From contig ML978128.1 in NCBI GenBank assembly GCA_010015805.1, positions 1,488,001-1,552,000 of the forward strand: a stretch of DNA of 64,000 nt. Reading direction: 5' to 3'. The position numbers were made by a program, and so were the translations under genes. The notes below the pieces were generated by a model. The model was not told the DNA's origin. It was given only the letters and a program-made list of their open reading frames with translations, and did no database searches. Positions 1 to 18,080 of the stretch are shown here, piece after piece (position 1 is the first letter of the stretch; each line of letters starts with the position of its first letter). The DNA is from Rhizodiscina lignyota (taxonomy: Eukaryota).

Positions 1-1288
1 GGATGTTCGACCTTCAGCCGCGAGGCGTGGGAGATAAATTTAGCCCCATGTTTCGAAACATGTTCACGAAACAGCCAAACAACGGCGGCAAACCTCACAG
101 GGAATAAGTCCGAAATGATTGATGACGGGGTATCGAGCTCCTCCATGGAGTAGTCGTTAACTTCCTGTTCCTATCGAAAGAGAAAAGAGAGTTTGCACCG
201 TGCGCCTCCTTTCAAATGCCGGCACGTCGGCGCAAATCTTGTCAATGCAGATCTGCGGCTCCTCAAAGCTTGAACGCACGTCCTGAGGCTCGACCGTTCT
301 CTTGAGGCTCTGCTTAGCTGCTACTTGGTCTTTTATCCTGTTTCAATAAGTCGGTGAGTTGTTGGAGAAGTCCGAGAGTGGAGGCTGCGGCCGCTGAGGC
401 CGCGATCAATCGCTCACTGATCCAGCAACTTGCGTGACAAGACGTTTATTTCTCAATCATCATGGGCTCTCCCAGATTTCAGCAAAAAATCATTCAGCGT
501 TGTTATTGTACTCAGACCTACAATCCGTTTTGTAGCCCTCAGCACTGGTTTTCCTATTCGAGGATTGGAGCAGTCCTCACCGGTGACATGCTGAGAAAGG
601 CCTTGTTATATTTCAAATTCTCACAATCATTTTCGCAGATACAGGTATAACGAAAGTTGGGATTTAACAAATTTACCATTGATCGGCGTGGTTTATCAAC
701 AAATCCTCGACTCTTTTCAATTTCACCAGTTTAGTACACTCCGAAGAACATTGAACTAAGCTTTCAGAGATAGTTTCGTCTACTTTAACTCGTCCTGAGA
801 CCAGCTGGGAGAAACACCTTCTTCTTTCGCTGCTATCCCACTCTCGGTGATGGATACAGTTAGCAACTATTCTCTCAAGGCCAACCGCCATCGTCCCTGA
901 CACCGACCTCCCGGCTGAGCAATCACGACTTTTACGATGTCGATGCTCGACCCTCGAGCGCAACAATAGCAATGAAGCAGAAGGACGCGCTAGGAATTCC
1001 GCGAGCGACCGAGTATAGTCACTAGTCACGGCGAGTGAAGCAGCAACAGCTCAAATTTTAAGTCTGGCTCTGCCCCAATTGTCATTTGTAAAGGGCGTGT
1101 AGGAGTCGTTGCTCGTGACTTTGCATCCGAAACACCTATATCCAGCGCTGTACAGTGCTCTAATGGCGCTGCCAGGGCCTCTGTAGTCATGACAGTCAGT
1201 CCGATCTAACCACCATGCTCGGTGAAAGTGCTCGGCTAATGGTGAATCGATGCCAAGAAGTTCGGACGCCTTGCCAGTAAAAGGCCAC

Positions 1289-1392
1289 TTGAACACTACT
1301 TGAACACCCTCTTAAACACACCCTCTTAAACACGCCCCCTTAAACATCTCTTGAACATACTCTTTAAACACTACTTGAACACTCCTTGAACA
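1289..1392. repeat. Degenerate minisatellite: nine TTRAACA cores spaced 11-14 bp apart
   Basis: TTGAACA at 1289, 1300, 1351, 1375, 1386; TTAAACA at 1312, 1326, 1340, 1364. Confidence 0.85.
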
Positions 1393-1798
1393 CCAAGCCG
1401 TTGATGCCTAATACACAATGGCACTGCCTGCGGAGGCAGCAAATACGGAGACATAGTTAAATTCGAATGGTGTGTAGTTAGAGCCAAGTTCAGGAAATAT
1501 GTTCATAACATGTTAAGCGGAAGGCTGGGAAACTTGCAGAATAAGGATCGCTGGTGCATATCAACGATCTTCATGGCGAGTCGTTGAGTCAATAGCATGT
1601 ATAGTTATTATTGCATTCTGTATCGCCCATGGGTCCCAGTACGTGCGGAGCGGAAAAGTGATCAACACCTCTGTGAAGACAGATTGCCGTCAGTGGTCGG
1701 CATGTCTGGGTCTAATGCCATAAAACCAAGAGAAGAGTGGAGAAGTCCAATCCATGCATCTGTCATGAAGGCTATGAAGAGATGATGTCCAGCCCCAC

Positions 1799-2899
1799 TT
1801 ATATGTGGATTTGCGGCTTCGCTACAGGCCTACCGTCCCTGTACCCATCCAAAGCTTCATTCACTTTGTCGGCATCCAGCCCCTCGATGACGGAGAATGG
1901 GGTTGGTGTGATAACTTGTCCCTCGATCCACCCTGGCACCATTTCCCAATATGGTTTGCTCAGACCCGGTATGCTTGGGTCTGCCAAAATAGGTCTCCGC
2001 TCGTAGCCTGCTCTCTTCTCTCCAATCTTGGTCTCATCAACACTCGCTGTACGCACAAGAACTGCCAATTTGCCCCTCTTCGAACTGGAAAGAGCCCTTA
2101 CACCGAGCGTGTGCTCTCCTGGACCACTACTAACACAATCCAACGCATACACGAGGTCATCGCCGACAACTTCACGGATCTCGTAATCAATCTCGTCCAA
2201 AGTCCCATGGCGGTCGATGACGTGCGTCGCGCCGAGTCTCTTCAATTCTGCTTCACCCTTGATTTTCGAAGCAACGGCAACAATTGTGCCAATGCCGGCG
2301 TACTTGCTCCATTGGATGGCGAACTTGCCACATGCAGACCCACCGCCGATAATGAGGATTTGTTGAGACGCGTAATCGAATGATCCCGCCTCTGGCGTGC
2401 CGAATGGTGGGGGTATCCCAAGTCCGTCGTTCCCGAACAGTCCTACGAACGCTGTATATGGATTGAGAGCTAGTGTAGCAGCGTCGTCGCCGCTTATGCC
2501 AACCGGGACTTTCGCGGAGACGTCCGCCAAGGCAATGGCGTATTCTTGCGTCCCACATTGGTCAGGATCTGTCGGCCAACCTTGGGTGAAGATTTGGTCG
2601 CCGATTGCAAACTTCGAAACGCCCGGTCCAACCTTGGTCACAGTGCCCACGATGTCAATGGCTAACGGGGTGGGCAGGATGTCGGCTATGAAGAGGCCAT
2701 ATGAACGGGAAGATGAATCATGAGGATTGACTACGGATACCATGTTAGCTCAATGAGTTCTCTTCAGAGTGCGATTCGACTCACGTCCTGCGACTTCAAC
2801 TTTGACAAGAACTTCGCCCTCCTTAGGTTCGGGAATAGCTCGGTCGATGAAGACCATTGGAGCGCCAATTTGGCTGACCACGAGAGATCTTTGTGACAT
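1799..2899 (-). CDS. MDR-superfamily oxidoreductase (enoyl-reductase-like / zinc-type alcohol dehydrogenase-like), 2 exons
   Basis: Exon 1 is 2899-2785 (MSQRSLVV...VKVEVAG). The GTGAGT...GCTAAC...TAG intron at 2784-2731 joins to give VAGLNPHD. Rossmann motif GGGSACG; no zinc-ligand GHE motif. Confidence 0.88.
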
Positions 2900-3599
2900 T
2901 CCGGAACTGTCTTCGAGTCTGCGTTTTGATTGAGAGTATAGTAGTGAGAGATGTAGCGGAGCTGCTTCCGTGTCCATTCTTTTTCGCATTGCGCTGGGCA
3001 ATATATAGACTATCGGACACCGGATTAGTCAAGCGCTACTGTTCTTGATTAATCTTCCAACCAAAGATGCCGTAGGACGCTCGCAAGAGTAAATGCTAGT
3101 TGACTAATCAACTTTAATTTAAATGAGGAACAAGTCTTTAAGTACTGCTCAAAAAGGTGAAGCTGATGATAATGGGAAACGTATGTAATTCGACCAGAAG
3201 ATGGTTGTACAGGAAGATATTGAGATGATTATAATCAAAAGACGAAAACGGTGCTAGCTCTACTTCCTTATATGTTAACGCTACATTTCCATTTACGTCG
3301 AAGCTCTGACGCCACGCCTCAGGCGCCGCAAGGATTGCAGAGACATCCATCTGATGACTGTACGTCTCCACGGCTTGGAAGAAACTCAAGATCCTTGTGC
3401 CGCTATTGCGGTGATGAAAAAGTGGTGGTGGTGGTTTTGGATGAGCTAGCTGGCAATCTTGGTGCCGCTCCCTCGTGAGCTTGAGCGGGCCGCAGCTCGC
3501 AAGCGGGAGAAACAGGTGGAGCAGGTTAGCAGATCGGCGAGAAGAGAATTCTTCGCAGTAAGTGGTACTAACTGCTTCGTATAGCTAACCATCGATGGA

Positions 3600-4260
3600 G
3601 GGCGATGAGGGAGTTTATAGGAGGTCGCCGATGTTGGGCATACAGTTCTGGAGTGATGTGATGACAGATCCCGGATTTGGTAAGGAGCTGTACTTACCGT
3701 ACTTTCATGTTAGGGTTGGCTTGGTTAGTGTTATCCTAGGCCTGATCTGTGCTATCCTGTTTGCGCGCGACAGTATAACTCTAACACGTACTCTAAGTCG
3801 GAATTACGCGTAGGTGTGAGTGACGTCAAAGAGCGTGTCATTTGAGTGCTACGAGAAAGGATACTAAGGAGAGAGGTAGTTATAAGCCGTGCAAAGGACG
3901 AAAGGGAGTGTACGCTTTGGTGGGAGACCACGGCAAAACACCGGCGGACCGTACGCTACCTCGATACGTCTTTCGGGGACAAATCGCGTCCCGAGGTTGC
4001 CCTATCCAGCCTAGCGTATGTTAATAGATATTCGCACTAATCGTGGTAGGACTGAGGACTTTTACGTTGTTCCCTAATATTATAAGCCTTATAGATAATT
4101 CTAGCTAAGAACATGTTTAGCACACTTTTAAGTACCGATAAGGAGCTAATTAGGCGTGCGCGTCCCTGAAGGGAGTTACAGTAAAGAGATTAACGATACG
4201 TAAGACTTATATCATACAGGGCAGGGTAAAGGGGGTGCCTTATAGTGTCCCTAGTCCCTG
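3600..4260. mobile_element. Probable RIP-degraded repeat relic
   Basis: Visibly TpA-rich and CpA/TpG-poor, most clearly at 4020-4250, with no credible ORF. Ends in a terminus-like GTCCCTAGTCCCTG whose partner end was not found. Boundaries approximate. Confidence 0.4.
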
Positions 4261-4408
4261 TGGAGGTCAATCCCAACATGGAAGTGCAGTTTTCTAACAG
4301 CATAGCTCCTTACCAAGCCCTGACAGATCCACATTGGGATACCCCTTCCAAGCGAAATATTCCCGAAACATGGCGTCGAGTAACAAAGACTTATCAACCT
4401 CTTCCAAC

Positions 4409-5084
4409 ATGCCTGCTTTGAAGTTTGTGCGGTCGGTACGTCTCTCCGTAACATTTTCGCCTTGACATTTCGCCAATTGACGCGTAAGAGCAGGTCTGGG
4501 AGAGCTTTAGAGCGAGCTCCGGGTTGGAACCCCGGCTGCTGGATTCTGTATGATCTCAAACCCTACGATCCTTCTCGTGGCGATCTAAATATTGATTCCA
4601 TGCAGCTCAGAGTCACGGCCGCGAGTCCTGGGAAGGTCAACTTCGAGCTCGACATTCTCAAGGAGCACACGAACCGGCTCAACATCCTCCATGGCGGGAC
4701 GATTGCCAGCATGGGTAGGCGATTTCCTCTTTCAGCCATCTATCTGAGTATATATACGGTAACTGACTAATGCCAGTTGATCTTGGTGGGTCTTTGGCTG
4801 TAGCTTCGAGGGGCCTCTTTGCAACTGGCGTATCAACGGACCTCAATGTCACGTATCTCAGCTCCGGTGGCAAGATAGGTGACACTATCAAGGCCGAAGT
4901 GACCTGTGACAAGTTTGGCAAGACGCTTGCGTATACATCAATAAAATTCTTCAACGGCAAAGACGAATTGGTGGCGAGAGGTTCTCATACAAAGTATGTG
5001 GCACTGGCCTGGAAGGATCCGAACAATATCGTGGAGCAGCTCTCGTCAAGGTCTTCTAAAAACTCATCAGCCTCACCTTCATGA
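4409..5084 (+). CDS. Hotdog-fold acyl-CoA thioesterase (PaaI / ACOT13-THEM2-like), 4 exons
   Basis: Exons 4409-4435, 4494-4547, 4606-4714, 4777-5084, all with GT-AG introns. Motifs NRLNILHGGTIASMVD and GVSTDLNVTYL. Confidence 0.92.
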
Positions 5085-5210
5085 GACTCGACTTATAGTC
5101 AGATTCACTAGCACTTCGATAGACCATAATATCTCGTGTTACAACAGTCGAGTGCAGCGGTTTGGTATCTCTGGTATCATTGTCATCTTTTGGGTTCAGG
5201 AGCCTTGAGA

Positions 5211-8200
5211 TCACACATAAGTTTCCTCATCAATCTCGGGTCCCATCTCCTCCTCCACTTCATCATTGATCAACCCCACCTCATCGTCATCCAGATCTGC
5301 ATCTTTCATTGCTACTTCAGCCACTGGCGGTAGCATGCCACCTCCCTCCTTCAAAGCTTTCACTTTTGCCTGTGTCATCTCAAATACATATTGGCCCAAA
5401 TGCTCAACGCCCTCCATCTCCGCCATACGTCCCTTCTCTACCTTATCCACCAGCACCCGGCTCGTGGGATACATCTCGTTTGTCACGACAGTCAACTTGG
5501 TGGGATGCTGAAGGAGGAGATCGAATGCCTCTTTCAACTCGTAAGCGGACTCAAACACTTCGCGGCGACCGAAGACGTAGAGACCAAGACGAGCACGGGA
5601 AAGGGCAACGGTAAGACGGCGGATGTCCCGCAAGTAGCCAACACGACTAGTGCGGACCAGTGAGAGCAGGATGTCTGTAACGATTAGCAAATTGATGACA
5701 GCAGCACTGTCACGTGACTTACAGTCATTTTGCTCGCCCTGGTACTTGTCCACTGTCGCCACGATTCTCGGCATTCCGAACAGCCTGTTGTCTTTGCAGC
5801 GATGGGTCAAGACATCTCTGATGAGCGCCCTTTGCCCGGCATATGTAGTCAAGATACTGATCTTGTTGGCCGGATATCCGAGCAAGCGCATGTACATGTA
5901 CATCGCAACCACGTACTCAGCCTCACCCAAATTCTGTATGAAGTGCGGCGTTGGTTCCATCTCACCACGGCCTTTGTAGTCTGGAACATCGATGAACTGA
6001 TACTCGTATCGGAATCCAGCATTGGCGTTTACGAACTCGGGAAGAGTCTCGACCGTGGGAAGATTGCCGAGTTTCGGATACCTCCACTTGTACAGCTCTG
6101 CAAGACTTGGGCGGGCACGACCCTGTTGATCGAGCATAATAGTCGGTACACCCAGGCGAACAAGGCGCAGGAAGAGGCTTTGCTCAAGATTGGCATACTG
6201 GCGGAAAGCGAGATTTTCGATGATCGGAGAGTTTTGAAGGTGATCCCCACAGAGCACAACACGCTGAAGTGGTACTTGGCCATCTTGGGGCTTCTGCAAA
6301 GCCATAGGAATGAAGTTTTCAATTTCGGTGATTTGTGCCGCTTCTTCCATGACGACGTTGTCATAGTGGAAACCGAGGTCGGAAATTTCTTGGCGACGCA
6401 TAGCCGCATGTGTTGAGGTCATGGCGATGATACGAGCTTCTTTGATGAGGAGGTAGTTCGCCTTGTCGCGAGGGTTTCGGAGAATTTCGAAGGGCCGGAT
6501 ATCTTCTAATTCAGAGAATATCTTCTCAATGTGCCTGTAGCAGCCTGCAGCAATCTCCACAGCCTTCTCTTTTGGGACACCCGGTGGAAACAGCGGTTGT
6601 GGAGCATTTGAGAAGTACGCATGGAAGGGGAATGTCTCGACGATCTGCTGAAGATCCGACTCGTCGGACTGAACGAGATTCCAGTACTTTGTCCAAGCTG
6701 GCTTGATGTAGACAGAGTTGAAGTAGTCTGCCGTCTCGCATGTGCTTCCATGCGCACCTTGTGCACTGATACTAACGGCTAGGCGATGAACTTCCGCAAG
6801 GTACCGCTGTCCAAGTTCCAAGAACGACTCGACGCGGCCATACTTGCTGTAACTTCCCTCAGTCACAAGCTCCTCCTCACCATGTCCCAATCTTAGAAGA
6901 TGGCGTTCGTCGATATCCAGTGCAACAATCTTTTGGAAAAGCTGGTTTAAGGCTTGGTTGCTATGCGCGACTAGGAGGGTGCGTTGCGAGGGAAAGTTGT
7001 GATAGATGTTATTGATGATCTGCGTGGCAACATCCGTCTTGCCGGTTCCAGGAGGTCCGACGATGATGGTTAGGCCGGGCTGTGTGCCAGAGGTGATGGC
7101 TTCAATCTGCGATGGTGTGAAGCGAACTTGATTCGTCTTGGGGATGTCGGTTGGATATGGACCGGTGTTGGGAGGCTTATAAGTAGACACCTTAATTGTC
7201 TCCACAACTGGCGCCGGAGGTGGGTCTTCGTCTCGCCTTCTCTTCTTTGAAGGTCGAGGAGCCGGTGCAGCCTCTTCTGTCTCTTTCGTCTCGAGAACAT
7301 ACGGCGGGCCAAAGCTGCCTTCGACATCCTCGCTTGGTTCAATGACCTTGCCTGGTAAGCTCTCTATCAAGTGCTGCCAATCGGTGAATGTATCTCGAAA
7401 ATCGATAGATTGTAGTCGATTCGGTAGACGCTTGTAAGTAGCACCTGCAGGGTCACCGTAACCGAGGAAGACATCTTGCAGCCAAGCAGGTGCCGGAACG
7501 TCCGAGAGGGTCAGGCGCTTGATTGACTCCAGGATGGGCTTAAAATTATTCTCTCGCCCTCGGCGACGTATGATGAGATTAATCCTTTCATACGGATTTG
7601 TCACCATCTCACCCTTAGCAACTCGATCCATATCATGCTGATACGCAACAGGGTCAAGTTTGAGAATTAATCGGCGTTGGCGCACACGATGTGTGTGGCC
7701 GTTTGCCTGGCCACCTGAGCGTTCTCGTAATGGCCGGCCGTTCTCGTCTTGAATCTGCAGGACTTCTGCCGTCCGCAAGAATTGAAGACCGAGTTTTTCC
7801 TTTTCTGTCTGAAGCTCGGCGGAGCTGCCATTCGTGAGCATCATACGGCTTTGCGCTGCAGGCGGGCGAACAGCGGCCAGGAAGACCACATCATCTGGGC
7901 GCAAACTTTCCCATTCCTGGCGGACCGTGAAATTGAGCCTGCTGACGTCGAGAATCACTTCGCCACGAACTTGTGCGGGAGCTTCCTCGCCAACATCTGC
8001 CGAAGATATATCTTGCACAGCAACCTTAGGAATGGGTAGTGCCATTCGTGAGAAGCCATCGAATCTCACTTCTGTTCCCATCGAGCTGGCTTGGACTCGC
8101 CTTATCGTATCTTCTACATGTTTCCGAATACCGTAGAAGGATTCACTTCGGTAGAGGATGAATGCTCTCCAAAGGAAATCACCCATTGTCAGATATTGCA

Positions 8201-9710
8201 GGTTCAACTTTGGAATAGCCAGGGGTCTCGACCCATTGTACGTGTCATCGCGGAGGAAAGTTTCTTCGTAGAGTGATTGCTCCGTAGGAACAATTGTGAA
8301 GTCTCGAACCTCATCTCGGAATGTGGGTTTCCTCTCGTGGGATGAAATGATCAATTCCGTGAAAAAGTCGCGGTCTCGGGGGATGAGAGAGTTCCGAGGA
8401 TACTCTGTCCGAAAGTCCAAGAGAGTGCACAAACGTTCTAGATCACCCATATCAAGGACGCTGAGATGGTCTTCCAGATCTTTTCTGCTCTCCAAAGCCC
8501 CATAGTTTGCTAAGGCGAGGAGCTTCAATTTTTGGCCAAATTGCTTGATTGCGATCCGTTGGAGTTTTGACAATGCGGCATAATGAGACTGGTGGTCTTC
8601 AATGCTTGTACGTTGCTGACCAGACTGATCCTCAATTGGGAATGACGTATAATGGTCGAAAAGATTGAAAAGGTCTCGGAAGAGTCCGTTCTCTTTGTGG
8701 TTGAAGACGTGTGACAGCCTGACAGCAGCCGATAGATTGAGGTCCTGGATGAGAGCATTCACGTAGCGTCGTGTAGGCAGTTGGCTCTGGAGATCAATGA
8801 GCAGTTCCAAGAGTCGCTCACAGAACAATACCCTTTCTGCAGCGCCCTCCTTACTAGTATCGTAGACCTTGTCCAAGAATTCCAGAAGCAGCGTGAACAA
8901 CCATGATCGCTCAAAAAGCTGTCGAGATTTAGTCTCATCATCCGCGGCATCGAACCTTCGTCCAGATGCTCTCCATGCTCGTTTCAGAACTTGATTCGCT
9001 TCGAGCTTCGCCTCCCTCACGCGCTCGCTATGCAAGTTGTGCCAGATGGAAATGGACACCAGCGGTGCCAACTCTTTTCGCACCAAGCCAATGTCGAGTG
9101 ACTGGAATGCCCCCACGATGAATGATATCAGGTGTATGCGAATGTTCTGGGGAAGGGATTGGTCGAGGATCAGGTTGAGGATGCGGCGGAAGAAATAAGA
9201 GAACTCGTCAGGCCTGTCGCCAAAGAGATCTGTATACGATCAGTGAGAGCCGTACATATATAACTAGCAGATACATACCCCAAGCAGGAAGTCCTTCTCT
9301 GCGCTTAACGTTCACAAAGATTGCTACGAGGAGGATGTGGTAGTTCGATGCCTCTTCAGAGAAACCGGGCCACAGGTATCTGAGCATGTCAGCTCTTCCG
9401 TTGAACTCGTATACCGATTGGAACACACTCACTTCTCCAGAACTTGAAGGTTTTCTAGAATCAACAATGATCCATATGAGAAACCATCCTTCTCCAAGCT
9501 GTCCCAGAGTTCCGACTTGAGGATGTTTGACTTCACCGTCGGCGCTTTCTTCGCTTTGAGCCAATGCTTTCGCGCAAATTGCGCGTATTGGTTCTCGCCA
9601 TGGAGGTCCGACACCGTCGGTCGAGCGTGTAGAGCAGAAAAGTTGCCCTGCGAGGTCACGATTGGAACCGTCGAGCCGTTACTCGATCGTGGCCTCGGTT
9701 CGGGGTCCAT
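5211..9710 (-). CDS. cwf11: Intron-binding spliceosomal SF1 RNA helicase Aquarius (AQR/IBP160/Cwf11), 4 exons
   Basis: Exons 9710-9433, 9379-9279, 9229-5723, 5674-5211. Motifs LEKYLWP, PKLNLQYL, GPPGTGKT, MEEAAQI, TVDKYQG and VALSRARLGLY. Confidence 0.96.
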
Positions 9711-11679
9711 TTTGAACGACGACTGAGAAACTCAGCCTCGCGGTTCTCTTTTGGTATCAAGTAGTAAGTGTCATTGGTGAGCAAGTCGCGTGCTCTCAAG
9801 GCGATGTTTTCTATCGCGTTTTCCTGCTGAAAGGCTTGGCAAAGCATCAAAGATGCGCGACCAATCGGAGACGTGAATTCTCCGCAAACTACCTTAGCTT
9901 AGACCTCTCACAATGAACTCAACCAAGAAGCTAATCATGCGCTGTATTAAAGGTCAATGAAGAGACACTTAAGTACACTAATATTAACTTAGTGATTATC
10001 AATTCTAACATCATATCCAGAGCGCATCTTTTCCTCGACCTCCCTACATAACCATGCGACCTCCCGGACACTTTCGAATTCTTACCTTTATTTCGCTTCC
10101 AAATTGTCTTCAAAAATGAGGACAACTGAAGTTCTCACGGATCGTAATCGTACCGTACACATGCGACAGGTCGGCCATGTGCCTCCAGCGTTCTCGTCTG
10201 CGTTCATTCCAGGAGTCTGGAGGAACAAGAGCCGCGGAGTGACATATTGAGCGCCCTGCAGAGGTAACAAGCGCTATCTATTCTTTTTGCGCGCCAAACT
10301 TCGCCTTAGCCGCAGTCTTGAAGTGAGAGGCTTGCAGCATCGTTTGATAAATATACAGGAACTTCGTCTATTCTGACCAATCATACGTACCAACGGGTCC
10401 CTAAATATGGAATACAGTGCCATTAATCACGTTGGAGAGGAAGAAAGATTACACAGATCGGTGCCATTTTCATAATTTTCGGCTCCTAATTTGGCCTTGA
10501 GTGAGGGCTGGAAATCTAAATGTCTCCGGACGAAAGTTGTGAGATAGGGCGTTCACTCGTATGCTCGTCTCGTGTCGCATGAACATGATGCCAGCCCAGC
10601 CCGGGCCCAGCCTCCACAGTTTTGCGGCGCAGGGGCCGGTCATTTCATGGGGACAAATAGCCGGTTTTCTGGCGATACTCCGGCATAACGAAACTACGAA
10701 AGCAGTGGACAAGATCATCTTCACCTTAACTCTTACATACGGTAAGCAACAGAAGCTGAGCGACAGCTAATATCTATGAAGCACTCAGGGAATGGATCTA
10801 TACGTATACTGATGCCGTCGACCAATGGTTCAAGCCAAGGCTGTTCCCAAGGGCTTCTGCTCTTGCGACTGATAATCTCCAGGCAGTGTCGGCTCCTCCA
10901 AACTCGAGAATCTATTTTTGGTCAAGACATTGTGAATCTTACCACAACTCACACCTCCTAGTAGGACGAGCAGTCGTCTCGTGTGGGGATGCCTATATGG
11001 CCATTCACGCAATCTCTCCGAACTGTTTGCGCAGGAGGCAATTTTATGAACGTCGCAGCGATCTCACCTTGTTGCATTGATGGGCCGCGTGTCCAAGACC
11101 TTATCAACGTGGGTCAACTGTTTCTCACAACTACCTGCGGGTAACAGCGTTATAACGAACATTTCTTTCAACCAGTGCAGCCTGCATTCTTTCATACGTC
11201 ACAATTTCTGCTCACTGCCGTTTCAAACTTGCTCTGAATTCCTTTCGGGGACTTCTGTATACTGCTTACGGTTCATGCGACTCAGTGAGAGCAGGGATTA
11301 CCAACGCCTACTTCCAATTCTGTCATGGACATGGCTGGACAAGGCACGATTTAACATTTGGCACGAGTGAATTCTCCTTCAAGGGCAGTAGCGCCACCCC
11401 ACGTGCGGAGCTCGAGTAGCAGCGCCGCTTTGCAGCCTAAGGGCGCCAGCAAATCGACAAAGCCAGCAGGCTTAGTTTAGCACTGCCGCTACACGATCCC
11501 CGTCAGCCATGGTCTAATTGCTGCCCTGCAAGCAGTCTCCACTGTAGAAGCAGGGACGCTGTAGTTCATATGCCAACTCAACATTCCAATAACATTAAAT
11601 AGGTCCCGGGAACCCCAAAATCCTTGAATGCCAACTCTCTCACTACTATTATTTTCCACTCTCGTTTCTATCGAGCAAC

Positions 11680-12897
11680 ATGGTTCTGTCTAATAAATTC
11701 CGTCATTTGGCACTTCTATTGACCGCTTCTGGTCTGGCCTCTGCGGCGCCTGCGGCATATGGAAACCTTTCAAAACATTACGCGCTTGAAGCTATCCAGG
11801 CAACAAATACCCTCCAGAAACTCTTTTACAATGGAACAAGTGGGCTTTACTTTGCCATCAATTCCACAAACAATTCTACTGCGCCCGTGTGGTGGAACTC
11901 GGCCAATTGTATCACCACCCTTGCGGACTTGACGGCCATCGATGGGTCGGTTAGCAACACGACAAATCCGATTTTCGCAAATTCTTTCGAGAACGCGCCG
12001 GCATATGTCTTGAATCAAAAGAAGATTGATCCTCAGAACACCTGCATCGGGCAATGGCCGTGGACTTGCCCACCTGGCGTTGAGCCGGAAGAGATTACTC
12101 CTGGTGGATTCGATAACGACTTCTTCGATGACGCTGGCTGGTGGGGTCTAGCATGGGTTAGTGTCTTCGACGTCACTCAAGATGAGACATATCTCAATCA
12201 AGCTGTCGACATATTCAACCGGATGCTATCCGAAGGTTACAACGCAACTTGCGGTGCCATGTGGTGGAACAAAGAGCATGAACAGCAGAACGCAATAACG
12301 AATGAGCTATTTTTAAGCTTGGCAGCCCATATTGGAAACAGAGTTGATAACAGCGACTATTACAGAGGATGGGCTACGAAGCAGTGGGATTGGTTCCAAA
12401 ATAGTGGCTTAATCCAACCGTCTGGTCTTGTTGTCGACACGCTGAACAATGCCACTTGCCAGGCAAACACAAATGACCCAAGCTTCTCATACAATCAGGG
12501 CGTCATTTTGGGCGGACTGATTGAGCTCAACAAACTTGACCCGAATGGCACGTACATCGACATTGCCAATACAATAGCGAAGGCCGCGATCGCCAACCTA
12601 TCCGATGCGAACGGCATTCTCACTGAGTTTAATTCGAACGGCAATCCCGACCTTGGACTCGATTTGCCAACGTTCAAAGGTGTCTTCGCCAGGAATCTGC
12701 AATTTCTGCAACAGGAGACGAAAGACTCCAGCTATGCAAGCTACATCAGGAAGAACGCGGACAGCATCTGGAACACTGACCGTTCCACGATCAACGGCAC
12801 CCTTGGCACTGTGTGGGATCAGTACTTTGGCCAAGATCTTCCTCAAGGTCATTGCGCTGCGATGGATATGCTTGTAGCTGCGGCGGCTGTAAGCTGA
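11680..12897 (+). CDS. Secreted glycoside hydrolase family 76 (alpha-1,6-mannanase-like)
   Basis: Signal peptide; motifs WWNSAN, FFDDAGWWGLAW (catalytic Asp-Asp), NAITNELF, SYNQGVILG, FKGVFARNL. Intronless, with no obvious GPI tail. Confidence 0.92.
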   Translation: MVLSNKFRHLALLLTASGLASAAPAAYGNLSKHYALEAIQATNTLQKLFYNGTSGLYFAINSTNNSTAPVWWNSANCITTLADLTAIDGSVSNTTNPIFANSFENAPAYVLNQKKIDPQNTCIGQWPWTCPPGVEPEEITPGGFDNDFFDDAGWWGLAWVSVFDVTQDETYLNQAVDIFNRMLSEGYNATCGAMWWNKEHEQQNAITNELFLSLAAHIGNRVDNSDYYRGWATKQWDWFQNSGLIQPSGLVVDTLNNATCQANTNDPSFSYNQGVILGGLIELNKLDPNGTYIDIANTIAKAAIANLSDANGILTEFNSNGNPDLGLDLPTFKGVFARNLQFLQQETKDSSYASYIRKNADSIWNTDRSTINGTLGTVWDQYFGQDLPQGHCAAMDMLVAAAAVS

Positions 12898-13880
12898 TTA
12901 CCGCAAGCTGTTTAATCCGAGTGTCTATGGTTTTCAGGGTGGCGCTTGGGTCCGGTATGTAATAAGTATATTGGTAATGTTTAGATGTATATGTATGGCT
13001 GTATATATTGGATGATATGATATGGGTCTTATTTCGCGCATAATAGATGTAACTAGTTACTAAACGGTCTAATTGAATGGGATAGGCGCGGAGTTAAAGT
13101 TTCTTGTCTTCGGAATGTTCCTTTATTGTCAGCCTCAGTTCATCCATTCTTCAAAATCGCCGTAAAGAGCTCGAGCCTTAAAAGATTTGAGAGCTAGGTA
13201 GCGATGCTCTACTTCCCCGCAGCTGAACCTTCGCAATGATCCGATATCTATCCCAAAATAGACTAACGCATTACCAAATCAGGAAGTGGCCGAAGTATCC
13301 AGCTATGGGAACATTAGATATTGGCTTGAGAAGAGTTGGCGTCCATTTATCATCCCCGTGCAAGCAGAATTCAGTGAAAAGCAACAGACGACTATCTCTC
13401 GACTTCTCGGTTCAATACAAACGCTGTGACAAACCATCCAGATTGTCACAGGACGCACAACTACCTTCTTTATTGCTCGCAACAGGAGCGAGGCGCTTGA
13501 AGGTTAACGTTCAGCCGTATCACTAAGACCAGTCGAATTGTCCACAGCAAGTCAAACCACCGTCACACGTTCAGTACAGGAATAATTGCTTCTTTGTTGC
13601 ACACTTGCCGTCTTATCCAGCACGCCCAGCCTCCTTGCCCCTCAACGTCTCATATTGGCCCCACTTCACCTGCGCGCAGATTTCGCGCGTCGTGCGGCTA
13701 CGGATCGGTCAAGTGGCTACTGTCTTACCCCAGACCCTGCTGTGTTTGATTGGGCTGTAGAAGAAACAGGTCCAGTCCTTTCTGGCCGCACAAACCACGC
13801 AACAGCGGGATGATGCAGGGCCGAACTAAGGTAGGAAAGTGGCGGGGTCTGGACTGACATGTGACCTCTATTGGCTACCT

Positions 13881-13887
13881 TATATAA
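13881..13887 (+). promoter_or_regulatory. TATA box of the metallothionein-like gene
   Basis: TATATAA 135 bp upstream of ATG 14016, followed by a pyrimidine-rich stretch and a CA-rich leader ending in CACAATG. Confidence 0.65.
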
Positions 13888-14015
13888 GGCCCAACCACTT
13901 CTCTTTGTTCCTTTCCTCCATCAAGCAACGATAAAGATTCAATTGACGTACACGATCAACTTTTCCAGAGAATACAACTCTAGCAACACTTCAGACCAAA
14001 CTACACCACATCACA

Positions 14016-14204
14016 ATGTCTTCTTGTGGAAAGCCCGGCTGCTGCGGCGGTAACTGGTACGTCCCCGCTCGACCTCATTCGGATAGTCCAGAGGCTAACT
14101 CGTATCTAGCTCGTGCCCTCCCGGAAACTGCTCCTGCAAATGTAGGCACTGAAAATCTTCCGCCGTCTTCATGCTCGATCGGAAACTGACAAGCTATCTC
14201 AGAG
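14016..14204 (+). CDS. Metallothionein-like peptide MSSCGKPGCCGGNCSCPPGNCSCK (24 aa, 7 Cys), 3 exons
   Basis: Exon 14016-14056; intron 14057-14109 (GTACGT...GCTAAC...TAG); exon 14110-14141; intron 14142-14202 (GTAGGC...ACTGAC...CAG); T|AG forms the stop. CC and CxC motifs, good start context, TATA box. Too short to appear in the ORF track. Confidence 0.85.
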
Positions 14205-15998
14205 ATGCACAATCAACGCGATGACAAACATATGAAAGTCCACACCGACCGAGTTCGATCCTTCATGAACGACATTGGCATGACGCTTCGTTTCATTTGT
14301 GTATTAAATAAGCGGTTTCGGTAGCGGACGCATGGTGCATGGCAACGAGATGATACCAACAAGCATGGAACGGGTTTTGTGTAGTGAGAATAAACAAGTA
14401 GCAACGAGGAATACAATATCACGGTGGTGACACCCTGATCTCGCTCGCTAAACTGTCCTCTCTGATTGATATAATGGCTTGTGATGAAATGCCCGTCTTC
14501 ATTCTTCTCTTTCAATATGTTCGAATGGCCTGCATCGAGTTATCCCTCTCCCGATCTCACATCCGAGGGCTCGTAAAACGTATGTGGAGGTGGATACACG
14601 GGTTGTCGCTCTGATCTAGCTTCTGAGATGTGCAGGATTGGCCAGTCGGACCAGAGGCCAGACAATAGTCGCAGCGACAAAAGAGTGACGGAAGAGAGTG
14701 CATCGTGGGAACGCCCTATTAATTCAGGAAAGTTGACAATTTCTGAGAGCTTGTGACAAATGAAAATAGCGTAAGACGTATACGGCTTGAGCAAGCCATG
14801 AAGAGAACGCAACAAGACCAGGTTATGTACTCCTTAGACTTAGCTTTAGGAGACATCGCTCACTCAACGGCGGACAGTCTGAATAGGATAGGACGTAAGA
14901 CTCTCTTCGAGCTCGATTGTGCAATGCCGCACTGCCTCTCTTCCTCATCAATCAAAGATTGTTGAAAGACACCGTGAGGAAGAGCGTACACTTGTATACA
15001 AGAAGACTAGCTCCTGCACAAAGCTTCATTCCATTTGAGGCGCAAGTGCAAATCTCATGCGCTCGGTCCTGCCACTTTCGCCATCACGAGGGATCTCCAA
15101 ATTTCTAGATGAGATGATCGAAAGGTTGCAAAGCTGCAGCGTCAGGCACATGATTTCGAACTTTAGACTTTGACAGAACAGGGCGTGATATATGTACTCG
15201 GAACGGCTTACGGAGTATGATGAGAGTGATTGTGGAGAGCCGGAGACCGGGGTAGGTGAAACTGGACCAAAAAATATTAACTACGGTACCATCAGGGCAC
15301 AGGGCCACAGGCTGGCTTTATTTCCGTTTACGACTCAGCCTCGGCTCAGGCTATCGTATCCTACGACTAGGGCGTGGCACGGATACCCTACCACTCCTAT
15401 TATCTCACAGCGCTCGGCTTGCCTGCTTCCAGCAGTCGAATGTCCCAAAACGGACTTTCGGCCTTGAAAGCATCATAATTCTTCAGTCTCTTGAAAGCTA
15501 CGGCTAACTCTCCTTTGTCACAATGGAGTTCCGTAACATGTCAACCTCAAAAACCCCCTCATTGTCAGGCTCGGGGATCCTAAAATAGTTTAGCAAGCCC
15601 AAGTTGTAGTATTGACAATCTTCGCTCCACAACACAAACGAGAGCATATTTGAAAGCTCAGTTTACTATGTTTCCGACAGTGTTTATTAGAACTGCCTAG
15701 TCTCAACATATACCATCTTTGTTAACTGAAGGGGATGATCTTCTTAGCTTTTCAGTGTGTTACGTCTTCTCATTGCCAGGCCTGAAAGGAAGAAATAGAT
15801 ATCGTCCGGGCAAACTTTAACACCTAAGCGCAAGCAGCTCTCCCACTTCAAGAGAAGTGAGTCACTCTTCTGGAAGCTTAGTTTCATGTTCTTCGGGGTG
15901 TATATAATCGCAGTATACCGTTGAAAACTTTTTATGATTCACTGAATCTGGAATGTACATTACATTACTGTTCAACTTGTTGGACGCTGTGGCTAACT

Positions 15999-17495
15999 TC
16001 AACTTAAAGACCGCTTGCAGATCTTCGACATCTCCCCGTCCTCCAGCATCCTCACTACCTGCTCCAGTGCCTTCTTCTCCACATCGCTCCATGACCAATA
16101 CTTGTAATGTCTTTCGACATACCGCAGCTCCGCTCCCAACAACATACACAAATCCCTCCAGGCGCCCGCCACATCTCGTGCTACCGTGACCGCGCTTGGA
16201 TTCGGCACCATACTCGTTATGAACCGATCCCACGCCGCAAAGAACGCACCCTGCGTAGCTGCTTGATTGGTGCTGATGAGGATGTATATCTGCGAGGTCG
16301 AGGAGGGTCGCGCAACCGGCTGCGTGATGATGACGATGTTGACTCTTGCGGCGAAGAGGCCTCCAGTCGCTCGATCCGGGTCGAGAAGGATTTCCGCCAA
16401 CGGTCCGATATGGTCATCGCCGGGGCAGTTGATCTCGCCTGTAGTTTTGGAGAGACGGCCCTTAGCGCGGTCAACGCTGCAAGACCGGTAATTTGATGCC
16501 AGCTTGCATTCATTTGCCCAGCTGCTCGCGCTATTCGGCAGAGATTGATTGATTTTGTTGACGCATTGACTTGTCGGGCAATCGTCTATGGCAGCGTGGA
16601 GCTGGAAAATCGACACCGCAGTGCGATTGAACGATCGACGCACCCTCTCGCGCCATGAGTCCTCGGGCAGCAGTGCTGGCCATGTGCTCGCGAACCTGGG
16701 AAGCTGTCGTAGTCGTGAAATCCTCAGACCGAGTTCTTGCCCTTCGACAAAAATAAAAGGGATATTGTGCAGGGTTGCTTTCGCCAGCAGTCCCTGTAGT
16801 CGTAGTCCGTCGAAGACCGTGTTGAGCGTCCAGCGTGAGGTGCCTTTTTCATTATATAGCGGCCCTGTGATGGTGATTGCCTTGAATGTTGTGGTTGCCC
16901 GCCCGGATGTGACATTTGGAAAAAGGAAATGGTCCAAGAATGTGACTGACGCCGATTCGTGCCAGACGATGCCTTGCAGTCCTGTCGTTCCGAGTGTATT
17001 AGAGATTGAGACCTGCACGCGAGCAGCCGCTGCAGACAGTGTATTGGTGCTGTACTGGTGTGCAGCTCCCGTCCTCCTTGTTGGCAGTCCCCTAACTAAG
17101 GTGACATTGCCCCAACAGAATGCGTTCTCTTTCAATTGTGCGACGCCCCGGGAGCGAAAGTGCTGCCGCAAAAGCGCCAGCGCATGGTCGAAGTGATGTT
17201 GTCGGTCCCATTCATCAACAATAATGACTGCCGCAACTCCCCTCGGCGATCTTGGCCTCCGTTCACTCAGATGGAGCAGTGCCATGAGGATACGAAGCAG
17301 CGACGCGGAGGATGCAGTCGTATGGTATACAGCGAGATTCGAAGTTGAGGAAATGACTGCGTGCAGCCAATCGGACGAGTTCAAGAAGGCATCGGAGGAA
17401 GTGGCTGGAATGTCAAAAATCGCTTTGATCAGCTCTGATGTTGATGAGCATAGTGGTCCTGTCGTGCCACTTTCTGGCTGTTGGAGGGAGGCCAT
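15999..17495 (-). CDS. Hypothetical 498-aa protein (possible nucleoside-hydrolase-like alpha/beta fold)
   Basis: Uninterrupted 1.5-kb ATG-initiated ORF with globular composition; no family recognised with confidence. Confidence 0.7.
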   Translation of the reverse strand: MASLQQPESGTTGPLCSSTSELIKAIFDIPATSSDAFLNSSDWLHAVISSTSNLAVYHTTASSASLLRILMALLHLSERRPRSPRGVAAVIIVDEWDRQHHFDHALALLRQHFRSRGVAQLKENAFCWGNVTLVRGLPTRRTGAAHQYSTNTLSAAAARVQVSISNTLGTTGLQGIVWHESASVTFLDHFLFPNVTSGRATTTFKAITITGPLYNEKGTSRWTLNTVFDGLRLQGLLAKATLHNIPFIFVEGQELGLRISRLRQLPRFASTWPALLPEDSWRERVRRSFNRTAVSIFQLHAAIDDCPTSQCVNKINQSLPNSASSWANECKLASNYRSCSVDRAKGRLSKTTGEINCPGDDHIGPLAEILLDPDRATGGLFAARVNIVIITQPVARPSSTSQIYILISTNQAATQGAFFAAWDRFITSMVPNPSAVTVARDVAGAWRDLCMLLGAELRYVERHYKYWSWSDVEKKALEQVVRMLEDGEMSKICKRSLS

Positions 17496-18080
17496 ATCTG
17501 AGAGCAGTCAAAGAAATTCAGAATTGGCGATACGTTGTACAAGGAGAAGAGTGGAATTCGAGTTGGCTCCGAAATTGCGTATGGCATATAAGAAGCGGGG
17601 CTAGAGACCATTGTATGCAGCTGGTCGTGCATGCGTTGTGAAGCTGTTCGCTCGAACGCATAAGCACGGAAGACTACGACGTGAAGAGCATTATATATAC
17701 TTACAAGCTATGGTTTGGATGTGATTTCGATATCCTTCTGCATGCAAACAGTTTCTGGTGATTTTCTGCATTTCATACTACAAGCAAATGGCACTGAGAC
17801 CCTTTTTAAACTCATGTGGTCCACGCCGCATTCTACTCTGATTATGCGGATAAGCCCAATCAACTGAGAAGTATGATGGTTTTCGTTTAATACTTGCAAT
17901 CAACAAGTTTGAGTTCATCGGTCCAGTCTGTTTATTCACAGCATTTACCTGTATGGTTGTGAGATGCAGTCGCTTCCTGAACGAAGTTGTGACCTCAATG
18001 GCAAGCTCACTATTGCTCGACCAAAGTTGCAGGGACTGAAATGGGTAGATATAGCATCTCTTGTAAGGCCCAAGGGCATC

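What the first reader, a model, noticed from the sequence alone, without database searches (positions are those of the whole stretch)
14016..14204. Hidden 24-aa metallothionein-like gene whose stop codon is assembled by splicing
Seen: two canonical introns give MSSCGKPGCCGGNCSCPPGNCSCK (7 Cys). The second intron splits the stop codon (T|AG), so retaining it yields the 27-aa ...CSCKCRH, with one more Cys and a terminal His. Known: very short Cys-rich Cu-thioneins occur in filamentous fungi (e.g. Neurospora Cu-MT, Magnaporthe MMT1) and are often missed by gene callers. Inference: splicing versus retention could change the metal-ligand set (7 Cys versus 8 Cys + His), making a splicing-tuned metal buffer.
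Basis: partly seen in the sequence, partly recalled or inferred. Interest (0 to 1): 0.72.

Follow-up and report, generated by a model that had tools for sequence, protein, structure and literature searches.

The report
Tiny twice-spliced fungal metallothionein gene
A fungal genome carries a real, transcribed, easily overlooked gene for a 24-residue cysteine-rich peptide of the metallothionein kind; its stop codon is completed by splicing, but nothing shows that keeping that intron works as a metal-tuning switch.

Summary
The gene is real. Both introns lie where stated, and one soil RNA contig covers 13951-14398 with both removed at exactly these junctions. The mRNA seen is therefore the 24-aa, 7-Cys form. 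Its Cys spacing is the Agaricomycete hepta-Cys metallothionein motif with CC for the first C-x-C, and residues 10-23 match the core of the Tremella Cu-thionein unit. Best reading: an ordinary short fungal metallothionein, probably Cu(I)-binding; binding is untested. The switch is unsupported but not excluded. No retained-intron contig was seen, though contigs drop rare forms. The extra Cys is forced by T+GT (83 of 83 control introns). The donor is weaker than intron 1's but within the normal range. The full Cys-Arg-His-stop tail is uncommon by chance (0 of 85), which keeps a small chance open. No genomic homologue could be reached to test conservation. The scan noted similar tiny spliced fungal metallothionein genes before, on other DNA. 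New member of a known kind; interest 0.25.

The parts
13511..13520 (-). Ace1-type consensus site (HTHNNGCTGD), distal; function not shown
   Evidence: consensus from PMC6337107
13598..13604 (+). MRE-like heptamer (motif recalled); function not shown
13671..13678 (.). MRE-like palindrome, counted on both strands; function not shown
13749..13758 (+). Ace1-type consensus site; function not shown
13802..13811 (-). Ace1-type consensus site; function not shown
13881..13886 (+). TATA box
   Evidence: 70 nt upstream of the 5' end of the RNA contig
13951..14015 (+). 5' UTR (minimum extent; no upstream ATG)
   Evidence: RNA contig X1 record 1 begins at 13951
14016..14056 (+). Coding part of exon 1 (41 nt; C-x4-CC and two bases of Cys14)
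14057..14109 (+). Intron 1, 53 nt, phase 2, strong donor
   Evidence: joint skipping 53 nt GT..AG in X1; donor rank 2 of 256
14110..14141 (+). Exon 2 (32 nt; C-x-C-x4-C-x-C-K and the T of the stop codon)
14142..14202 (+). Intron 2, 61 nt, phase 1, splits the stop codon T|AG; weaker donor
   Evidence: joint skipping 61 nt GT..AG in X1; donor rank 99 of 256, about 37th percentile
14141..14152 (+). Read-through tail Cys-Arg-His-stop, translated only if intron 2 is retained; not observed in RNA
   Evidence: no RNA depth in the intron body
14203..14409 (+). Exon 3: two bases that complete the stop codon, then 3' UTR (minimum extent)
   Evidence: X1 record 1 to 14398, X2 record 3 to 14409
14389..14394 (+). 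AATAAA, candidate polyadenylation signal
   Evidence: the near-identical RNA contigs end 4 and 15 nt after it

Best explanation
A single-copy three-exon gene for a 24-residue, 7-Cys fungal metallothionein. SHOWN: the locus is transcribed, and both introns are removed in the RNA seen, the second excision completing the stop codon. The product has 29% Cys, no aromatic residue and no His. INFERRED from family knowledge: the cytosolic peptide folds around a metal-thiolate cluster, most likely 5-6 Cu(I) on 7 Cys as in other 7-Cys fungal units, and buffers or detoxifies copper, perhaps also Cd or Zn. INFERRED, weak: a copper-fist factor induces it through Ace1-type sites. Intron 2 is an ordinary terminal intron that happens to fall in the stop codon. 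Any retention is low-level and harmless, because translation stops three residues later.
For: Both junctions in one RNA contig, no intron-2 depth. Only such micro-gene model in 664 kb. Cys spacing C-x4-CC-x3-C-x-C-x4-C-x-C; the last five Cys fit the hepta-Cys motif of PMC12508003, and residues 10-23 fit the Tremella unit core of PMC4755600. The spliced form ends one residue after the last Cys; 8 of 8 genes in the PMC12508003 supplement end 0-1 residue after it (read by eye). A second organism's spliced homologue in X1 keeps C-x-C-P-x-G-x-C-x-C while other residues change (record 2 and its loose end). 7-Cys Neurospora and Agaricus MTs bind about six Cu (PMC13107397); Cryptococcus units form Cu5 clusters. 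3 Ace1-type sites in 505 nt upstream, against 16 of 1140 control windows with 3 or more. Two copper-fist matches in G000.
Against: No metal binding, induction or translation shown. Strict family patterns are not met. Hepta-Cys Agaricomycete MTs also protect yeast against Cd, so the metal is not fixed (Table 1 of PMC12508003). The promoter window was chosen after seeing the sites, and the motif occurs at chance level over the whole window (66 found, 63.8 expected). RNA evidence is one contig of one run from a slightly different strain (4 other letters and 2 gaps in record 1). The Cys-Arg-His-stop tail is rare in controls (0 of 85).
Confidence: 0.8

Rival explanations
1. One reading: intron 2 is retained in a regulated way (by metal or stress), giving a 27-aa form with 8 Cys and a terminal His and a different metal preference, for example towards Zn or Cd.
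For: Intron 2 has the weaker donor. Short His-ending read-through 0 of 83; Cys-Arg-His-stop 0 of 85 with the donor hexamer fixed. Intron retention is the commonest alternative splicing in the fungi studied in PMC6176087 (passages). An 8-Cys small MT of Heliscus lugdunensis exists, and a paper title reports a His that treats Cd and Zn differently in an aquatic-fungus MT (title only).
Against: No retained form in X1; the spliced contig runs unbroken across both junctions. Cys is forced by T+GT (83 of 83) and Arg by the donor. His follows in 11 of 85 controls once the donor hexamer is fixed, so only His plus stop, about 1% by my estimate, is left, and this site was picked from a very large scan. 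Donor score is near the 37th percentile of inferred donors. Pairing over the donor is ordinary (23 of 85 controls equal or higher). No unusual fold (z 0.86) and no Rfam match.
Confidence: 0.07
2. Relic tail: the ancestral gene ended in Cys-Arg-His, and intron 2 arose later when these codons became a donor site (intron gain by recruitment of coding and 3' UTR sequence). The 24-aa form is derived and the tail is unused.
For: Would explain both the non-consensus donor and the ligand-like tail. None of 8 Agaricomycete MT genes has an intron in the stop codon. The eighth Cys falls near where the Tremella unit has its last Cys, though at C-x-C rather than C-x2-C.
Against: The 7-Cys form already ends like the hepta-Cys family. 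Intron length (61 nt; control median 56) and branch-to-acceptor distance (18 nt; common in controls) are ordinary. No genomic homologue was available to polarise the change.
Confidence: 0.08
3. The peptide is not a metal buffer: it serves another thiol role (redox or NO scavenging), or the RNA is not translated.
For: No translation or binding data. No protein homologue found, though those queries could use only part of exon 1's frame.
Against: First ATG in good context. Cys pattern kept in a second organism's transcript. Match to characterised metal-binding units.
Confidence: 0.05

Closest known systems
Agaricomycete hepta-Cys metallothioneins (AcMT2, PiMT1, HcMT, HmMT, LbMT; PMC12508003)
   Same: Seven Cys with spacing C-x4-C..C-x3-C-x-C-x4-C-x-C at the C-terminus; 0-1 residue after the last Cys; short introns, one of them phase 2 next to the C-x-C-x4-C-x-C block.
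   Different: CC in place of the first C-x-C; 24 aa against 32-59 aa; intron 1 lies inside the Cys codon, one codon later than their last intron; an extra intron in the stop codon, absent from 8 of 8 of their genes shown.
Tremella mesenterica TmMT and Cryptococcus CnMT1/2 seven-Cys building block (PMC4755600)
   Same: Core C-x3-C-S-C-P-P-G-x-C-x-C matches residues 10-23 exactly, including the proline doublet.
   Different: A single free unit rather than a tandem array; CC instead of the first C-x-C; an extra N-terminal Cys; no A-x-C-P tail (full pattern not met).
Neurospora crassa / Agaricus bisporus Cu-MT (Binz and Kagi family 8, fungi-I)
   Same: About 25 aa, 7 Cys, no aromatic residue, filamentous fungus.
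   Different: Cys pattern CxC-x5-CxC-x3-CxC-x2-C not met.
Heliscus lugdunensis small MT (8 Cys; His role known to me from a title and recall only)
   Same: The hypothetical retained form would have 8 Cys plus a His.
   Different: That form is not shown to be made here; no sequence comparison was made, and the His paper was not held.
Aspergillus fumigatus CmtA
   Same: A metallothionein of a filamentous ascomycete with a minor role in copper protection beside the AceA-CrpA export system (PMC6514546 passages); a guide to the likely phenotype.
   Different: Sequence not compared; no call gave it.

Membership tests
Metallothionein superfamily | Low molecular weight, Cys-rich, CC / C-x-C motifs, no aromatic residues | tested here: met
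   24 aa, 7 Cys (29%), 0 aromatic
Metallothionein superfamily | Expressed, spliced gene | tested here: met
   RNA contig with both junctions; translation not shown
Metallothionein superfamily | Binds Cu(I), Zn or Cd in metal-thiolate clusters | not testable with these tools
   needs recombinant or synthetic peptide and ESI-MS / ICP
Metallothionein superfamily | Metal-responsive expression or protection of metal-sensitive cells | tested here: inconclusive
   only promoter motifs: 3 Ace1-type sites, 16 of 1140 control windows reach this, window chosen post hoc
Family 8 (fungi-I, Neurospora / Agaricus bisporus) | Seven Cys in about 25 residues | tested here: met
Family 8 (fungi-I, Neurospora / Agaricus bisporus) | Cys pattern CxC-x5-CxC-x3-CxC-x2-C (PMC4755600) | tested here: not met
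   both forms
Agaricomycete hepta-Cys MTs | Strict motif C-x4-C-x-C-x2,3-C-x-C-x4-C-x-C (PMC12508003) | tested here: not met
   fails by one residue (CC); met when CC is allowed; last five Cys met
Agaricomycete hepta-Cys MTs | Motif at the C-terminus, 0-1 residue after the last Cys | tested here: met
   spliced form 1 residue, retained form 2; 8 of 8 reference genes 0-1 (read by eye)
Agaricomycete hepta-Cys MTs | Phase-2 intron in the codon before C-x-C-x4-C-x-C (my reading of the supplement, not a published criterion) | tested here: inconclusive
   intron 1 is phase 2 but one codon later; sliding or independent gain cannot be told apart
Tremella / Cryptococcus seven-Cys unit | Core C-x3-C-S-C-P-P-G-x-C-x-C | tested here: met
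   residues 10-23
Tremella / Cryptococcus seven-Cys unit | Full unit, and tandem repetition in a long protein | tested here: not met
   single unit
Regulated intron-retention switch | Retained isoform present as RNA | tested here: inconclusive
   not seen in X1, but contigs drop rare forms and no raw reads were offered
Regulated intron-retention switch | Read-through tail conserved in relatives | tested here: inconclusive
   no genomic homologue reached: 0 of 46 metagenome matches
Regulated intron-retention switch | Isoform ratio changes with metal | not testable with these tools
   needs raw-read RNA-seq or RT-PCR under metal exposure

The most novel reading that the evidence does not exclude
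Intron 2 is a conditional switch: when its weaker donor is skipped, the ribosome reads three more residues and turns a 7-Cys Cu-type thionein into an 8-Cys + His thionein with another metal preference, so one 189-base coding span makes two metallothioneins. Because a stop split as T|AG, T|AA or T|GA always gives Cys on retention, this would be a cheap and general way for Cys-rich peptides to gain a ligand. My paper searches (listings only) showed no title on such a case.
Probability: 0.07. Interest if true: 0.65.

Novelty: new member of a known kind. Interest (0 to 1): 0.25.

Why it matters
As it stands: a correct gene model, with RNA support, for a class that automatic annotation often gets wrong (PMC4755600 says so). 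It also shows a free 24-aa unit, in what is probably an ascomycete, that resembles basidiomycete hepta-Cys and Tremella units more than the Neurospora type, which bears on the origin of the fungal seven-Cys unit. The split stop means that a model missing intron 2 would report a false 8-Cys + His peptide. If the switch were true, it would be splicing control of a metal-ligand set, cheap to test with one RT-PCR and two synthetic peptides.

Tried and rejected
Metagenome pattern scan for exon 1: by inspection, none of 46 matches has a start codon and metallothionein gene structure; all listed contigs exceed 1.2 kb, so short transcripts may be absent from that collection. Word-index protein search with 40 residues of the unspliced frame: no candidate. 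HMMER search of representatives with 30 residues of that frame: 1 hit, an unrelated tandem-repeat protein. Atlas search with residues 1-20: no usable hit. Pfam on the 57-aa unspliced frame: 0 families. None of these used the spliced peptide, so none shows absence of homologues. No relatives are held for this genome. Paralogues: one DNA match in G000; an exon-2 pattern gave 8 matches, 1 this gene and 7 without a metallothionein model by inspection; a looser pattern gave 689 matches and was uninformative. More distant MT genes are not excluded. Run X2 covers only the 3' UTR and says nothing on splicing; X3 is near-identical DNA and may be this genome's source, so it is not independent. A structure-based switch: a 5-bp hairpin covers donor 2, but its pairing is ordinary (23 of 85); intron folds have z 0.86 and 0.83; Rfam 0 matches. 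Alternative acceptors at 14193 and 14204 would give 67 and 30 aa; neither was seen in RNA. Five short peptide motifs of this gene and its homologue: 0 papers. Earlier-findings look-ups by sequence, by relatives and within this genome found no metallothionein note. PMC7075258 passages held nothing on a fungal MT. I made no structure prediction (peptide under 30 aa and metal-folded).

Full report
Verdict. The gene is real and spliced as described. It is best read as an ordinary short fungal metallothionein. The proposed splicing switch is unsupported but not excluded.

1. Observation. The ATG is at 14016. Intron 1 (14057-14109, 53 nt) and intron 2 (14142-14202, 61 nt) both have GT donors, branch motifs (14094, 14185) and YAG acceptors. 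Exon 1 gives 41 coding bases and exon 2 gives 32, so intron 1 is phase 2 and intron 2 is phase 1, splitting the stop as T|AG. The spliced product has 24 aa, 7 Cys, no His and no aromatic residue; with intron 2 kept it has 27 aa, 8 Cys and 1 His. A scan for spliced Cys-rich micro-genes over 664,000 bases (the window plus 600 kb of G000) returned 2 models, both at this locus. G000 is 33.4 Mb in 33 contigs and holds one DNA match. Neighbours include a GH76 gene upstream, an Aquarius helicase and a fungal DUF2011 gene.

2. RNA evidence. Three runs were offered and laid, all as contigs. In soil RNA run X1, one 332-nt contig (depth 15.9) covers 13951-14398 and skips exactly the two introns, both GT..AG. 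X1 has no depth at 14155-14191. The contig carries 4 other letters and 2 gaps, so it comes from a near-identical strain. A second X1 contig, from another organism, matches 14010-14056 with 6 differences and continues without an intron; I read its 30 displayed letters as C-x-C-P-x-G-x-C-x-C-Ser. Its last 12 letters are not shown, so its stop context is unknown. X2 covers only the 3' UTR, to 14409. X3 is near-identical DNA and may be the genome's source. Contigs drop rare variants, so this shows that the spliced form exists and probably dominates in one sample; it does not show that retention never occurs.

3. Gene anatomy. TATA lies at 13881, there is no ATG between 13880 and the start, and AATAAA lies at 14389. 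Three Ace1-type sites (consensus from PMC6337107, passages) lie within 505 nt upstream; 16 of 1140 control windows have three or more. That window was chosen after seeing the sites, and the motif is at chance level over the whole 64 kb (66 against 63.8), so this is a weak hint. G000 has 2 copper-fist matches, not typed as Ace1-like or Mac1-like.

4. What the peptide is. The spacing is C-x4-CC-x3-C-x-C-x4-C-x-C. PMC12508003 (abstract, section 19, first part of the Discussion, whole supplement) defines a C-terminal hepta-Cys motif, C-x4-C-x-C-x2,3-C-x-C-x4-C-x-C, for Agaricomycete MTs. Our peptide fails it only by CC for the first C-x-C. PMC4755600 (parts 1 and 3 of 7 and passages) gives the Tremella Cu-thionein unit, whose core matches residues 10-23 exactly; the full unit and the Neurospora pattern are not met. 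Seven-Cys Neurospora and Agaricus MTs bind about six Cu (PMC13107397, passages). So it likely works like a Cu-thionein, but it is not a member of family 8 by pattern. The metal is not fixed: the hepta-Cys MTs in Table 1 of PMC12508003 protect yeast against both Cd and Cu. In A. fumigatus the metallothionein CmtA plays a minor part beside export (PMC6514546, passages), so a knock-out phenotype may be small.

5. The switch. For it: donor 2 is weaker than donor 1. Its hexamer is not enriched before strong acceptors (3 seen, 2.5 expected; rank 99 of 256), while donor 1 ranks 2. Among 83 candidate introns set behind a T, 9 stop within three residues, none of the short ones ends in His, and 2 stop within six residues with a further His or Cys. 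With our donor fixed, 0 of 85 give Cys-Arg-His-stop. Retention is the commonest alternative splicing in fungi (PMC6176087, passages). Against it: the Cys is automatic (83 of 83), the Arg is set by the donor, and His follows in 11 of 85 once the hexamer is fixed. What remains is roughly a 1% coincidence by my estimate, at a site picked from a very large scan. A rough profile puts donor 2 near the 37th percentile of inferred donors. The control introns are predicted, not annotated, use only five donor types and include false calls. A small hairpin covers donor 2, but 23 of 85 control donors are paired as much; neither intron folds better than shuffles and Rfam finds nothing. The spliced form ends like the family: 8 of 8 genes in the supplement end 0-1 residue after the last Cys and none has an intron in the stop codon (read by eye). 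No retained RNA was seen.

6. What could not be tested. Conservation of the split stop and tail is the key comparison, and no genomic homologue was reached: none of 46 metagenome matches was a homologue, and protein searches could use only the unspliced frame and found none. These blanks do not show that the gene is rare; the second organism in X1 shows that relatives exist.

7. Literature. Five motifs gave 0 papers. Searches for metallothionein with intron retention or alternative splicing in fungi listed no title on such an isoform (20 of 21,864 listed; 3 of 3, all rice; 30 of 124). The search on split stop codons listed no title on introns in stop codons (30 of 64). I saw these as listings only, and most subscription papers on fungal MTs are not held. 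The Heliscus His paper was seen only as a title in the reference list of PMC8003315. That introns sometimes fall in stop codons is my own knowledge, not from a call. Two earlier notes of this scan report similar tiny spliced fungal MT genes in other genomes; they are unchecked and are not support.

8. Odds. Ordinary spliced metallothionein 0.80; relic tail with later intron gain 0.08; regulated switch 0.07; other role or untranslated 0.05. Shown: transcription, both junctions, composition and pattern matches. Inferred: translation, metal binding, copper preference, induction. Novelty: new member of a known kind. Interest 0.25; 0.65 if the switch proved true.

Noticed in passing
run X1 record 2, laid on window 14010-14056: A spliced homologue from another soil organism: exon 1 matches with 6 differences and the next 30 letters keep the Cys pattern with other spacer residues. 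Its stop context is not displayed.
   Followed up: partly
run X2 record 4, laid on window 14286-14306 and 14387-14432: A contig matches two short 3' UTR pieces with 73 other letters between them; possibly a more distant relative with conserved UTR elements, possibly chance.
   Followed up: no
window 14016-14189: The fully unspliced frame is open for 57 aa, so retention of intron 1 would give a 4-Cys peptide; no Pfam family.
   Followed up: partly
window 14200-14204: Tandem acceptor (CAG then AG two bases later); use of the second would remove the stop and give a 30-aa product with one Tyr. Not seen in RNA.
   Followed up: partly
window 14133-14146: Five-pair hairpin (-4.8 kcal/mol) pairs the end of exon 2 with donor 2; not unusual against control donors.
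   Followed up: yes
window 14057 versus the PMC12508003 supplement: Intron 1 sits one codon downstream of the last intron of 8 Agaricomycete MT genes, in the same phase; intron sliding or independent gain.
   Followed up: partly
window 15999-17507, minus strand: A 502-codon open frame, convergent with the metallothionein gene, with no Pfam family.
   Followed up: no
window 11599-12897, plus strand: GH76 glycoside hydrolase gene directly upstream; a synteny anchor for finding orthologues.
   Followed up: partly
L056 (G000:C2) and L057 (G000:C7): Two copper-fist domain matches in the genome, not typed as Ace1-like or Mac1-like.
   Followed up: no
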